DNA of 64,000 nt from the human T2T-CHM13v2.0 reference genome, Homo sapiens. The DNA is taken from the NCBI RefSeq assembly GCF_009914755.1, contig NC_060938.1; one strand, written 5' to 3'. The translations under genes were made by a program, and so were the position numbers. The notes under the pieces were generated by a model that made no database searches, was not told where the DNA came from, and saw only the letters and a program-made list of their open reading frames with translations. Shown in pieces: positions 42,601 through 46,701 of the stretch. Numbering within the stretch: position 1 is the stretch's first letter; every line of letters begins with the position of its first letter.

Positions 42601-45600
42601 CTTGCTAGTGGTCTATCAATTTTGTTGATGTTTTCAGAAAAATAGCTCCTGGATTCATTGATTTTTTGAAGGGTTTTTTGTGTCTCTATCTCCCTGAGTT
42701 CTGCTCTGATCTTAGTTATTTCTTGCCTTCTGCTAGCTTTTGAATGTGTTTGCTCTTGCTTTTCTAGTTCTTTTATTTGTGATGTTAGGATATCCATTTT
42801 AGATCTTTCCTGCTTTCTCTTATGGGCATTTAGTGCTATAAATTTCCCTCTACACACTGCTTGAAATGTGTCCCAGAGATTCTGGGATTTTGTGTCTTTG
42901 TTCTCACTGGTTTCAAAGAACATCTTTATTTCTGCCTTCATTTTGTTATTTACCCAGTAGTCATTCAGGAGCAGGTTGTTCAGCTTCCATGTAGTTGAGC
43001 AGTTTTGAGTGAGTTTCTTAATCCTGAGTTCTAGTTTGATTGCACTGTGGTCTGAGAGACAGTTTGTTATAATTTCTGTTCTTTTACATTTGCTGAGGAA
43101 TGCTTTACTTCGAACTGTGTGGTCAATTTTGGAATAAGTCCGATGTGGTGCTGAGAAGAATGTATATTCTGTTGATTTGGGGTGGAGAGTTCTGTAGATG
43201 TCTATTAGGTCTGCTTGGTGCAGAGCTGAGTTCAATTCTTGTTAACTTTCTGTCTTGTGGACCTGTCTAATGTTGACAGTGGGGTGTTAAAGTCTCCCAT
43301 TATTATTGTGTGGGAGTCTAAGTCTCTTTGTAGGTCTCTAAGGACTTGCTTTATGAATCTGGGTGCTCCTGTATTGGGTACATATATATTTAGGATAGTT
43401 AGCTCTTTTTGTTGAATTGATCCGTTTACCATTATGTAATGGCCTCCTTGTGTCTTTTGATCTTTGTTGGTTTAAAGTCTGTTTTATCAGAGACCAGGAT
43501 TACAACCCCTGCTTTTTTTTGTTTTCCATTTGCTTGGTAGATCTTCCTCCATCCCTTTATTTTGAGCCTATGTGTGTCTCTGCACGTTGAGATTGGTCTC
43601 CTGAACACAGCACACTGATGACTCCTGACTCCTTATCCAATTTGCCAGTCTGTGTCTTTTAATTGGAGCATTTAGCCCATTTACATTTAAGGTTAATATT
43701 GTTATATGTGAATGTGATCCTGTCATTATGATGTTAGCTGGTTATTTTGCTTGTTAGTTGATGCAGTTTTTTCCTAGCATCGATGGTCTTTACAATTTGT
43801 CATGTTTTTGCAGTGGCTGGTACTGGTTGTTCATATCCATGTTTAGTGCTTCCTTCAGGAGCTCCTGTAAGGCAGGCCTGGTGGTGACAAAATCTCTCAG
43901 CATTTGCTTGTCTGTAAAGGATTTTATTTCTCCTTCACCTTTGAAGCTTTGTTTGGCTGGATATGAAATTCTGGGTTGAAAATTCTTTTCTTTAAGAATG
44001 TTGAATATTGGCCCCCACTCTCTTCTGGCTTGTAGAGTTTCTGCTGAGAGATCAGCTGTTAATCTGATGGGCTTCCCTTTGTGGGTAACCTGAACTTTCT
44101 CTTTGGCTGCACTTAAGATTTTTTCCTTCATTTCAACTTTGGTGAATCTGACAATTATGTGTCTTGGAGTTGCTCTTCTCAAGGGGTATCTTTGTGACAT
44201 TCTCTGTGTTTCCTGAATTTGAATGGTAGCCTGCCTTGCTAGGTTGGGGAAGTTCTCCTGGATAATATCCTGAAGAGTGTTTTCCAACTTGGTTTCATTC
44301 TCCCCATCACTTTCAGGTACACCAATCAGACATAGATTTGGTCTTTTCACATAGTCCCATATTTCTTGGAGGCTTCGTTTATTTCTTTTTACTCTTTTTT
44401 CTCTAAACTTTTCACTTCATTTCATTAATTTGATCTTCAATCACTGATACCCTTTCTTCCAGTTGATTGAATTGGCTACTGAAGCTTGTGCATGCATCAC
44501 GTAGTTCTTGTGCCATTGTTTTGAACTCCATCAGGTCATTTAAGGTCTTCTCTATGCTGTTTATTCTAGTTAGCCATTCGTGTAATCTTTTCTCAAGGTT
44601 TTTAGCTGCTTTGCTTTGGGTTTGAATATCCTCCTTTAGCTCAGAGAAGTTTGTTTTTACCGATCGTCTGAAGCCTTTTTCTCTCAACTCGTCGAAGTCA
44701 TTCCTCATCCAGCTTTGTTCCGTTGCTGGCGAGGAGCTGCGTTCCTTTGGAGGAGAAGAGGTGCTCTAATTTTTAGAATGTTCAGCTTTTCTGCTCTGGT
44801 TTATCCCCATATTTTTGGTTTTATCTATCTTTGGTCTTTGGTGATGGTGACATACAGATGAGGTTTTGGTGTGGATGTCCTTTCTGTTTGTTAGTTTTCC
44901 TTCTAACAGTCAGGACCCTCAGCTGCAGGTCTGTTGGAGTTTGCTGGAGGTCCACTCCAGATGCTGTTTGCCTGGGTATCACCAGTGGAGGCTGCAGAAC
45001 CACACATGTTGCAGAATGGCAAATGTTGCTGCCTGATTGTTCCTCTGGAAGCTTTGTCTCAGAGGGGCACCCGGCTGTATGAGGCGTCTGTTGGCCCCTA
45101 GTGGGAAGTGCCTCCCAGTTAGGCTACTCGGGGGTCAGGGAGTCACTTGAGGAGGCAGTCTGTCCATTCTCAGATCTCAAACTCCATGCTGGGAGAACCA
45201 CTACTCTCTTCAAAGCTGTCAGACAGGGACGTTTAAGTCTGCAGAAGTTTCTGCTGCCTTTTGTTCAGCTATGCCCGGCCCACAGAGGTGGAGTCTACAG
45301 AGGCAGGCAGGCCTCCTTGAGCTGTGGTGGGCTCCACCCAGTTCGAGTTTCCCAGCCGCTTTGTTTACCTACTTAAGTGTCAGCAATGGCAGCCGCCCCT
45401 CACCCAGCCTCGTTGCTGCCTTGCAGTTTGATCTCAGACTGCTGTGCTAGCAGTGAGCAAGGCTCCGTGGGCGTGGGACCCTCCAAGCCAGGTGCGGGAT
45501 ATAATCTACTGGTATGCCATTTGCTAAGACTGTTGGAAAAGCGCAGTATTAGGGTTGGAGTGAGTCAATTTTCCAGGTGCCATCTGTCATGGCTTCCCTT

Positions 45601-45835
45601 GGCTAGGAAAGGGAATTCCCGGACCCCTTGCACTTCCCGGGTGAGGCGGTGCCTGGCCCTGCTTTGGCTCACTGTCCGTGGGCTGCACCCACTGTCCTGC
45701 ACCAACTGTCCGACAAGCCCCAGTGAGATGAACCCGGTACCTCAGTTGGAAATGCAGGAATCACCCGTCTTCTGCATCGCTCACGCGGGGAGCTGTAGAC
45801 TGGAGCTGTTCCTATTTGACCATCTTGGAACCTCC
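39700..45835 (-). mobile_element. Full-length L1 (about L1PA5-7), ORFs disrupted
   Basis: Ordered ORF2/ORF1 fragments in the ORF track; complete 5' UTR ending ggaggttccaagatgg, including the ~128-bp segment at 44941-45068. Confidence 0.92.
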
Positions 45836-45856
45836 CACTATTTTTATTTCTTCTAA
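45386..45856 (+). CDS. L1 ORF0 homolog, 156 aa from ATG, reading out of the element; translation unproven
   Basis: MAAAPHPASLLPCSLISDCCASSEQGSVGVGPSKPG; Kozak gcaATGG; part of ORF 45377-45856. Confidence 0.6.
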   Translation: MAAAPHPASLLPCSLISDCCASSEQGSVGVGPSKPGAGYNLLVCHLLRLLEKRSIRVGVSQFSRCHLSWLPLARKGNSRTPCTSRVRRCLALLWLTVRGLHPLSCTNCPTSPSEMNPVPQLEMQESPVFCIAHAGSCRLELFLFDHLGTSHYFYFF

Positions 45857-46531
45857 GTAGGCAACCTAGTAGCTTCTTTCTTCTGTTTTTCCTTGTCATC
45901 TTTATTTTATTTCTAAAAATGGATATGCTTCACATTATTAACTAATTGAAGATGAGTTTTTTGGCATTGATCTAAGTCAGTGATAATTTCAAAATTGGAG
46001 TTAGAAGTTAATGATAAAGGAATCCAGTTTACACAACTAATGCAATAGCTTTCATCCGTGAAAGAGCAGACTTTCACGTATTTGGATATATCTTCAAGCT
46101 CCAGAGAAAAACCTCCTAAAACTTCTACTCACTAGGGCCCATGTTCTGCAAAATGGATTATTTTGCTTTTCTAGGAAGCAATTTTGTATAAATTAGTGCT
46201 TAATACATTTTTGGGAATCAATAAATAATAAATGTCATACTTATTTTATTGACATACGTCCTTGATAAATGTAAGAAATAAAATTAGTAAGCATATAATT
46301 AATATGTAGAATGTACCTGATAAGCATATAATTATGTATACAATAAAGTGTACTTCAATTTATAAAAAGTTTGTATCATTTTTGCTGTTAACATCATGAC
46401 TAAACTCTCTTGTGAAGCAAGGAGAAACATTTACAAATTGTTATTCAAATATAAAATTAGTTGTACAGGTTTACCAAAAAGAGAAAATGTATACTTTACA
46501 GTACTTGTTAAAACAAACTTTTTTTTCCTAG

Positions 46532-46701
46532 GACATACCGAGGGATTGCATATGTTAAATGGAAATTTTATAAAGAAGCAACTCAAGATTTTTCTGCTGC
46601 AATTCACTTAGATCCTAATAACTGGTTAGCGTTGTATTATCGAGGTTGCTTATTCAGAAAGAGTAACCCTTTTAGAGCGCTACAGGATTATAGTGTTTCA
46701 G
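46532..46701 (+). CDS. TTC6: Coding exon E (RTYRGIAYVKWKFYKEATQDFSAAIHLDPNNWLALYYRGCLFRKSNPFRALQDYSVS)
   Basis: ttttttcctag|G acceptor, CAG|gtactt donor; 170 nt, phase 2 to 1. Completes the TPR begun in exon D across a 34,228-bp intron. Confidence 0.92.

What the first reader, a model, noticed from the sequence alone, without database searches (positions are those of the whole stretch)
45386..46701. L1 ORF0 splice donor in frame with TTC6 exon E, only 955 bp away: candidate ORF0-TPR fusion from an L1 antisense promoter
Seen: the antisense L1 ending at 45835 has an ATG in strong Kozak context (gcaATGG, 45386) opening an uninterrupted ORF0. Donors are intact at +106 (CAG|GTGCGG, 45491/2) and +191 (CAG|GTGCCA, 45576/7). 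191 nt is 63 codons + 2 (phase 2), and exon E accepts phase 2, so the join reads ...VSQFS-R-TYRGIAYVKW... and stays open through exons E-K (299 more codons in this window). The +106 donor is phase 1 and would be in frame with exon F. Known: L1 antisense promoters drive chimeric host transcripts (as at MET), and ORF0 uses two such donors to form exon fusions. Inference: this locus could make an N-terminally swapped TTC6 when the L1 is demethylated (germline, embryo, tumours). Phase agreement alone has a 1-in-3 chance.
Basis: partly seen in the sequence, partly recalled or inferred. Interest (0 to 1): 0.85.

Follow-up and report, generated by a model that had tools for sequence, protein, structure and literature searches.

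The report
Relic L1 ORF0 facing TTC6 exon
An old LINE-1 element inside a TTC6 intron still carries an antisense start codon and splice donors that could in principle join in frame to the next TTC6 exon, but nothing shows that this happens, and a younger LINE-1 14 kb upstream already supplies an annotated TTC6 first exon of exactly this kind.

Summary
These are the ATG at 45386, a 156-codon open frame, GT donors at 45491/2 and 45576/7, a 955-nt gap to exon 46532, and a +191 join that stays open for 363 codons.

The ORF is the inherited L1 ORF0, not a chance ORF. It aligns without gaps to the ORF0 of a second, younger L1 at about 25861-31896.

That younger L1 carries the hub-listed TTC6 exon 31448-31635. 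The exon starts 3 nt after that L1's own ORF0 ATG and ends exactly at the homologous +191 donor. So the proposed mechanism is already annotated for TTC6, at the other L1.

- The in-frame donor is weak and sits between two stronger out-of-frame donors.
- A start site at the homologous position would lose the ATG.
- Most L1 antisense transcripts are unspliced.
- TTC6 is absent from the three searched supplement sets.

Expression could not be tested. Verdict: a real but ordinary candidate, one of about 3200 genic ORF0 loci.

The parts
39693..45836 (-). Full-length and antisense to TTC6, with broken ORF1/ORF2 and a 1024-nt 5'UTR.
   Evidence: BLAST of 39500-45900 against the window gave 90.3% identity over 5271 nt to 25865-31119 and 82.7% over 776 nt of 5'UTR to 31120-31894. 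The longest stop-free stretch is 341 aa and the 5'UTR CpG o/e is 0.31.
44941..45068 (-). 5'UTR segment of about 128 nt, present in L1-B and absent from L1-A.
   Evidence: Break between the two BLAST pieces. It matches the 129-bp ZNF93-site deletion that arose in great-ape L1PA3 (passages of bioRxiv 10.1101/429613). L1-B is therefore a pre-deletion L1PA3 or older, and L1-A is post-deletion.
45386..45856 (+). ORF0-like ORF of L1-B, 156 codons. The ATG sits at L1 nt of about 450.
   Evidence: Homology to the ORF0 of L1-A is shown. No Pfam family.
45271..45450 (+). Upstream ATG with a 59-codon ORF in another frame, overlapping the ORF0 ATG.
   Evidence: It would be read first by any transcript that starts upstream of 45271.
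45489..45497 (+). Donor SD1, CAG|GTGCGG (exon end 45491). Phase 1, out of frame with exon E.
   Evidence: Crude PWM score 3.96, 99.1st percentile of 4067 GT sites.
45574..45582 (+). Donor SD2, CAG|GTGCCA (exon end 45576). Phase 2, in frame with exon E.
   Evidence: Crude PWM score -0.45, 87th percentile. The homologous donor of L1-A, CAG|GTGCCG at 31635, is an annotated exon end.
45638..45646 (+). Third donor-like site, CGG|GTGAGG (exon end 45640). Phase 0, out of frame with exon E.
   Evidence: Crude PWM score 4.98, 99.6th percentile.
45577..46531 (+). Would-be 955-nt intron. Its non-L1 part is 28% G+C and holds AATAAA at 46220, 46227, 46277 and 46342.
46532..46701 (+). TTC6 exon E. It accepts 2 nt from the exon before and encodes the last 29 positions of one TPR plus the start of the next.
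   Evidence: TPR_1 E 1.1e-5, 25.4 bits (below the 27.8 cut-off), profile positions 6-34 of 34.
45046..46047 (.). Two adjoining RefSeq 'enhancer' functional elements over the L1-B antisense promoter, ORF0, 5' end and flank.
   Evidence: Hub annotation only. The underlying assay is not given.
25861..31896 (-). L1-A, a younger full-length L1 in the same intron, nested in an older L1.
   Evidence: 12-nt target-site duplication CAAACTACTTTC at 25849 and 31897. Stop-free ORF2 stretch of 1076 aa. 5'UTR 908 nt with CpG o/e 0.50. BLAST.
31448..31635 (+). Hub-listed exon of another TTC6 transcript, lying in the antisense 5'UTR of L1-A. It is a first exon: it is preceded by TG, not AG. It ends at the ORF0 +191 donor.
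   Evidence: Hub table. The ATG of ORF0-A is at 31445, so 31445-31635 is 191 nt. The first AUG of the annotated exon, 31571, is in the ORF0 frame and stays open through 63880 when joined to exon E (321 codons).
31445..31753 (+). ORF0 of L1-A, 102 codons if unspliced. Its SD1 homologue is destroyed (CAC|GT).

Best explanation
The feature is the relic antisense ORF0 of an old full-length L1PA element (L1-B, 39693-45836, minus strand) in the 34-kb TTC6 intron.

Its ATG, open frame and two donors are inherited from the L1 family. The distance from the ATG to the second donor is a fixed 191 nt in both L1s of this intron. Any such L1 placed antisense upstream of exon 46532, which accepts 2 nt, is therefore automatically in frame. 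This is one coincidence for the intron, not a special property of L1-B.

The L1-antisense-promoter first exon that TTC6 really has in the annotation comes from the younger L1-A (31448-31635). Most likely L1-B contributes no significant in-frame ORF0-TTC6 protein. Its only experimental annotation is as an enhancer.

Shown here: the anatomy, the homology, the phases, and the position of the annotated L1-A exon. Inferred: that L1-B is silent or non-productive.
For: - Homology and identical 191-nt geometry of the two ORF0s.
- The hub-listed exon 31448-31635 starts in the L1-A antisense 5'UTR at L1 nt of about 447 and ends at CAG|GTGCCG, the homologue of 45576.
- No exon lies between 31635 and 46532 in any of the 16 RefSeq transcripts (hub table).
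- The in-frame donor of L1-B is weak (-0.45). It is flanked by the intact SD1 (3.96) and by 45640 (4.98), both out of frame. In L1-A the SD1 homologue is destroyed, which may be why SD2 is used there.
- A start site homologous to the annotated L1-A one would fall at about 45389 and lose the ATG. The next AUG, 45514, opens a 12-codon out-of-frame ORF, and exons E-H hold no in-frame Met.
- Published start-site ranges are +300 to +500 and +150 to +250 of the L1. [quoted passage not shown]
- About 3200 genic ORF0 loci exist, and 57 were seen fused to an exon (Criscione 2016, PMC4908685, citing Denli 2015).
- TTC6 had 0 hits in the supplements of Criscione 2016 (10 files), Pinson 2022 (3 files) and Jiang 2021 (PMC8044218, 7 files).
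- L1-B is older and more decayed than L1-A: it retains the 129-bp segment, has CpG o/e 0.31 against 0.50, and its ORFs are broken.
Against: - ATG, frame and both donors of L1-B are intact, and the exon acceptor is strong and only 955 nt away.
- The nearly identical donor of L1-A is used in an annotated transcript, so a low PWM score does not exclude use.
- Two RefSeq enhancer elements cover the L1-B antisense promoter and ORF0, so this DNA was active in some assay (hub table).
- L1PA1-7 elements with a 5'UTR give chimeric transcripts at 17.25% of loci in brain and glioma alone.
- Absence from gene-name searches of supplement files is weak evidence. Files may have been cut when stored, or may list loci by coordinates only. 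TTC6 is also a low-expressed gene, which I state from recall.
- No RNA data could be consulted.
Confidence: 0.65

Rival explanations
1. When L1-B is de-repressed, its antisense promoter starts upstream of 45386, the +191 donor is spliced to exon 46532, and a protein is made that consists of 63 ORF0 residues plus the C-terminal TPR part of TTC6.
For: The geometry is intact and in frame. The homologous donor is used at L1-A. Enhancer annotation covers the promoter region (hub). ORF0 fusions are documented at 57 loci.
Against: No exon is annotated in L1-B (hub). The donor is weak and sits between two stronger out-of-frame donors. The primary antisense start lies at about L1 nt 400, downstream of the ATG. 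An upstream ATG lies at 45271. Only 2.9% of chimeric transcripts are spliced. TTC6 is absent from the three searched supplement sets.
Confidence: 0.07
2. The antisense promoter of L1-B is active in some cells but gives non-productive RNA. One form would be unspliced run-through that ends at the AATAAA cluster at 46220-46342 and at most encodes the 156-residue ORF. The other would be transcripts spliced from 45491 or 45640 that hit a stop in exon E or F.
For: Most chimeric transcripts are unspliced, and 17.25% of L1PA1-7 loci are active in brain and glioma. There are four AATAAA signals in the 955 nt. SD1 and 45640 outscore SD2, and their joins stop at codons 61 and 93.
Against: No transcript evidence of any kind for this locus was available. 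The PWM used is crude and its numbers are recalled.
Confidence: 0.23

Closest known systems
L1 ORF0 and ORF0-exon fusion proteins (Denli et al. 2015, Cell 163:583). The paper is not held and is known here only through citing papers.
   Same: An ORF antisense in a primate L1 5'UTR, with its ATG at L1 nt of about 450 in a strong context. Two internal splice donors could join it to downstream host exons.
   Different: The ORF here runs 156 codons, against the 70-71 given in the literature. No transcription, translation or fusion has been shown for this copy.
L1 antisense-promoter chimeric transcripts, or LCTs (Criscione 2016, PMC4908685; Pinson 2022, PMC9396940). L1-MET is recalled as the classic case.
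   Same: An intronic L1PA that is antisense to its host gene, so the antisense promoter points along the gene. A host exon lies close downstream.
   Different: No EST, RefSeq model or listed chimera was found for L1-B (hub table).
The TTC6 alternative first exon 31448-31635 in L1-A (RefSeq, hub table).
   Same: Same gene, same intron and same orientation, with a homologous ORF0. The 191-nt ATG-to-donor distance, the phase and the nearest downstream annotated acceptor (46532) are also the same.
   Different: L1-A is younger: it has the 129-bp deletion, a higher CpG content and a nearly open ORF2. Its SD1 is destroyed. It has in-frame AUGs at 31571 and 31607, downstream of the annotated start. 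L1-B has neither the annotation nor such internal in-frame AUGs.

Membership tests
L1 ORF0 locus | Lies on the antisense strand of the 5'UTR of a primate L1 (L1HS, L1PA2-8). | tested here: met
   The L1-B 5'UTR aligns end to end with that of L1-A (82.7% over 776 nt). The L1 5' end is at 45835/6.
L1 ORF0 locus | ATG at L1 nt of about 450, with the frame open through both internal splice donors. | tested here: met
   The ATG at 45386 is L1 nt 450. The frame is open to 45856, and the donors are at 45491 and 45576.
L1 ORF0 locus | Product of about 70-71 residues. | tested here: not met
   The ORF is 156 codons here and 102 in L1-A. The first 63 codons are homologous, and the copies differ after the second donor. 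I treat length as a descriptive feature, not a defining one.
L1 ORF0 locus | Transcribed from the antisense promoter with a start upstream of the ATG, and translated. | not testable with these tools
   No RNA, CAGE, Ribo-seq or peptide data are on hand.
L1 antisense-promoter chimeric transcript (LCT) with a host exon | 5' end in L1 5'UTR nt +300 to +500 or +150 to +250, antisense. | not testable with these tools
   No data for L1-B. For L1-A, the hub-listed exon starts at L1 nt of about 447 and is preceded by TG, so it is not an acceptor.
L1 antisense-promoter chimeric transcript (LCT) with a host exon | Spliced from an L1 donor to a host exon in the sense orientation. | tested here: inconclusive
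   No exon is annotated in L1-B (hub), and gene-name searches of three supplement sets gave 0 hits. The sequence would allow it. L1-A has an annotated exon ending at its donor.
TPR repeat (the partner exon) | Match to the Pfam TPR models. | tested here: inconclusive
   Exon E alone gives TPR_1 at E 1.1e-5 and 25.4 bits, below the 27.8 cut-off, covering profile positions 6-34 of 34. Exon 51330 gives TPR_11 at E 7.3e-5. Whole-protein relatives are named TTC6 and carry many TPR families.

The most novel reading that the evidence does not exclude
The C-terminal TPR half of TTC6 is made in vivo as a great-ape-specific isoform whose N-terminus is L1 ORF0-derived.

From L1-A, the first AUG of the annotated exon (31571) gives 22 ORF0-frame residues, or the full 63 if some starts lie upstream of 31445. 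In hESC, germline or tumours, the older L1-B would add a second, independent in-frame ORF0 leader. The intron would then hold two ORF0-fusion promoters.

I put about 0.25 on any ORF0-frame TTC6 protein being made, and about 0.07 on L1-B contributing.
Probability: 0.07. Interest if true: 0.45.

Novelty: new member of a known kind. Interest (0 to 1): 0.25.

Why it matters
If L1-B did make an in-frame product, it would be one more ORF0-exon fusion. It would be a truncated TPR protein with a retrotransposon-derived head, and a possible tumour-restricted junction peptide.

The kind is already known: about 3200 genic ORF0 loci, with 57 fusions seen. The practically useful result here is different. 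TTC6 already has an annotated first exon driven by an L1 antisense promoter, at the neighbouring younger L1, with the same frame. That junction (31635 to 46532) is the natural positive control and the better target for any ORF0-fusion study of this gene.

Tried and rejected
- **Chance ORF:** rejected. The ORF is colinear with the ORF0 of L1-A.
- **Frame match as evidence of function:** rejected. Donors in all three phases exist, and every downstream exon is open with at least one of them.
- **Main-text literature searches:**
  - TTC6 + 'L1 antisense promoter': 0 papers.
  - TTC6 + retrotransposon: 2 papers, both unrelated by title and abstract start in the listing.
  - TTC6 + transposable: 10 papers, 6 listed, none on L1 chimeras by title or abstract start.
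  - C14orf25: 2 papers, both unrelated by title and abstract start in the listing.
  - A five-term search (min 2) listed 30 L1 papers, none of which holds TTC6.
- **Supplement searches for TTC6:** 0 hits in Criscione 2016, Pinson 2022 and Jiang 2021. These may bear on the claim.
- **Papers not held:** Denli 2015, Speek 2001, Yang 2003 and Jacobs 2014.
- **Protein search with exon E, longer proteins:** 91 hits at E <= 1e-10 among 93 candidates. I fetched 4 of the 91, and none has an ORF0-like N-terminus.
- **Protein search with ORF0-A, longer proteins:** 587 hits at E <= 10 among 595 candidates, of which the best 120 were listed, 114-337 aa long and unnamed or with no gene name. No TTC6 fusion is visible. 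This is uninformative, because a fusion sharing only about 21 residues would rank low.
- **Pfam on both ORF0s:** no family.
- **Subfamily call by consensus:** not possible, because no L1 consensus library is on hand.
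Full report
**1. Observation**

The window text at 45380-45389 reads tcagcaATGG, so the ATG starts at 45386 with G at -3 and G at +4. The + strand ORF from this ATG runs to 45856, which is 156 codons.

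GT donors sit at 45491/2 (CAG|GTGCGG) and 45576/7 (CAG|GTGCCA). They lie 106 nt and 191 nt from the ATG, in phases 1 and 2.

I joined the 11 coding parts given by the hub. Only one of the three frames is stop-free (0 stops in 600 codons, against 67 and 36). In that frame exon 46532-46701 ('E') takes two bases from the exon before it.

The join of 45576 to 46532 is open for 363 codons up to 63880, and the gap is 955 nt. The +106 donor joined to exon 49783 is also open.

**2. What it is**

BLAST of 39500-45900 against the window shows a full-length L1 on the minus strand at about 39693-45836. I call it L1-B. It is 90.3% identical over 5271 nt to a second full-length minus-strand L1 at about 25865-31894, which I call L1-A. 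The 5'UTRs are 82.7% identical over 776 nt.

L1-B has a segment of about 128 nt (44941-45068) that L1-A lacks. This corresponds to the 129-bp ZNF93-site deletion that arose in great-ape L1PA3 (passages of bioRxiv 10.1101/429613). L1-B is therefore a pre-deletion L1PA3 or an older L1PA, and L1-A is a post-deletion L1PA3 or younger. No consensus library was available for a firmer subfamily call.

| Feature | L1-B | L1-A |
|---|---|---|
| Longest stop-free stretch | 341 aa | 1076 aa (ORF2) |
| 5'UTR CpG o/e | 0.31 | 0.50 |
| Target-site duplication | none found | 12 nt, at 25849 and 31897 |
| Context | — | nested in a still older L1 |

The + strand ORF of the finding aligns column for column with the antisense ORF of L1-A. 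There is no indel between the ATG and the second donor, and 39 of 63 residues are identical. It is thus the family's ORF0, inherited and not a chance ORF.

It differs from the literature's description of 70-71 residues in length: 156 codons here, and 102 in L1-A. Neither ORF matches a Pfam family.

**3. The key finding outside the given coordinates**

The hub lists an 'exon of other transcripts' at 31448-31635. In the sequence this exon lies in the antisense 5'UTR of L1-A.
- The ORF0 ATG of L1-A is at 31445-31447.
- The exon begins at 31448 and is preceded by TG, so this is a transcript start and not an acceptor.

From 31445 to 31635 is again 191 nt, so the phase is the same. No annotated exon lies between 31635 and 46532 (hub table), so exon E is the nearest downstream partner. 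This is an inference, because the hub table does not give the exon chain.

Joined that way, the first AUG of the annotated exon (31571) is in the ORF0 frame and remains open through 63880, which is 321 codons. In L1-A the first donor is destroyed (CAC|GT), which may favour use of the second.

**4. How likely is the same at L1-B?**

Points for:
- The ATG, frame and donors are intact, and the natural acceptor 955 nt away is strong (ttttttttcctag|G).
- An almost identical donor is used at L1-A.
- Two RefSeq enhancer elements (45046-45547 and 45548-46047) lie over the L1-B antisense promoter and ORF0. This comes from the hub, and the assay is not stated.
- The antisense promoter is reported as active in L1PA1-6, with activity detected up to L1PA8. 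In brain and glioma, 17.25% of L1PA1-7 copies with a 5'UTR gave chimeric transcripts (Pinson 2022).

Points against:
- (a) None of the 16 RefSeq transcripts has an exon in L1-B (hub).
- (b) Donor strength. I used a crude donor matrix whose frequencies I recalled from memory, so the scores serve only for ranking:

  | Donor | Score | Relation to exon E |
  |---|---|---|
  | 45491 | 3.96 | out of frame |
  | 45576 | -0.45 | in frame |
  | 45640 | 4.98 | out of frame |
  | 31635 (L1-A, annotated exon end) | -0.06 | in frame |

  The 11 donors of the selected transcript score 0.06 to 8.43. The joins from 45491 and 45640 stop at codons 61 and 93.
- (c) Start sites. The literature places antisense starts at L1 +300 to +500 and +150 to +250, with the main start near +400. 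That is mostly downstream of the ATG at +450. The annotated L1-A start lies 3 nt after its ATG. A homologous start in L1-B would lose the AUG, the next AUG (45514) opens a 12-codon out-of-frame ORF, and exons E to H contain no in-frame Met.
- (d) Starts upstream of 45271 would meet an upstream AUG with a 59-codon overlapping ORF.
[quoted passage not shown] The 955 nt hold four AATAAA signals, so an unspliced transcript would probably end before exon E.
- (f) Gene-name searches found no TTC6 in the supplements of Criscione 2016 (988 EST-based transcripts, 10 files), Pinson 2022 (3 files) or Jiang 2021 (7 files). No held paper joins TTC6 with L1 terms. These absences are weak evidence, because files may be cut or may list coordinates only.

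**5. Frame agreement**

L1-B has donor-like sites in all three phases, and each of the seven downstream exons in the window is open with at least one of them. Some in-frame pairing is therefore guaranteed. It holds equally for both L1s, because the 191-nt distance is conserved.

**6. The partner**

Exon E matches TPR_1 at profile positions 6-34 of 34 (E 1.1e-5, 25.4 bits, below the 27.8-bit cut-off). A fusion would start five positions into a TPR helix.

Relatives found with exon E are named TTC6 across mammals (91 hits at E <= 1e-10 among 93 candidates). I fetched 4 of them: one starts in the preceding exon, one reads in from the intron, and two carry longer upstream TTC6 sequence. None carries an ORF0-like head.

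A search with ORF0-A returned hundreds of short ORF0-like proteins, unnamed or with no gene name, and no visible TTC6 fusion (587 hits among 595 candidates, 120 listed). This is uninformative for a fusion that shares only about 21 residues.

**7. Comparison and verdict**

The feature works like, and by anatomy is, an L1 ORF0 locus of the kind described by Denli 2015. I know that paper only through citing papers, since it is not held. Such loci number about 3200 within genes, and 57 were seen fused to an exon.

Membership in 'expressed ORF0 fusion' could not be tested. My estimates are:
- about 0.07 that L1-B yields a detectable in-frame ORF0-TTC6 mRNA;
- about 0.23 that its antisense promoter is active but non-productive;
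- about 0.65 that it contributes nothing significant, and that the in-frame geometry is inherited plus coincidental.

The finding is a correct but ordinary candidate. The more useful lead is the annotated L1-A exon.

Noticed in passing
window 31445-31753, with the annotated exon at 31448-31635: A hub-listed exon of another TTC6 transcript is the antisense 5'UTR of a younger L1. It starts 3 nt after that L1's ORF0 ATG and ends at its +191 donor. Its first AUG (31571) is in the ORF0 frame and, joined to exon 46532, stays open for 321 codons in the window.
   Followed up: partly
window 25849-25860 and 31897-31908: A 12-nt target-site duplication (CAAACTACTTTC) brackets L1-A, which is nested in an older L1 (flanks 25472-25854 and 31906-36379, about 76% identical to L1-B). 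L1-A keeps a 1076-aa stop-free ORF2 stretch.
   Followed up: partly
window about 13154-20517 (minus strand); + strand ORF at 19911-20042: A third, older L1 antisense to TTC6 lies in the same intron (76-86% identical to L1-B). At the corresponding place it has a decayed 43-codon ORF0-like ORF.
   Followed up: no
window 45386-45394 and 31445-31453: Criscione 2016 places a YY1 motif and ChIP peak at L1HS nt 448-453, which is on the ORF0 ATG. L1-B reads ATGGC there and L1-A reads ATGGT. The meaning for start-site choice is unknown.
   Followed up: no
window 46695, 49830, 49868: Three ends of 'exons of other transcripts' are not followed by GT (for example GTG|TTTCAG at 46695). They are transcript ends rather than splice donors.
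   Followed up: no
window 46396-46720 (protein P0083): A 105-residue database protein from a short unnamed contig reads from the intron through exon E into the next intron. It is identical to the window, so it reflects either an intron-retaining RNA or plain genomic DNA.
   Followed up: no
protein P0092: The best hit to ORF0-A is 97% identical over 63 residues, 158 aa long, and comes from a chromosome-size contig. The next hit is 92%. It may be an orthologous copy of L1-A in another genome.
   Followed up: no
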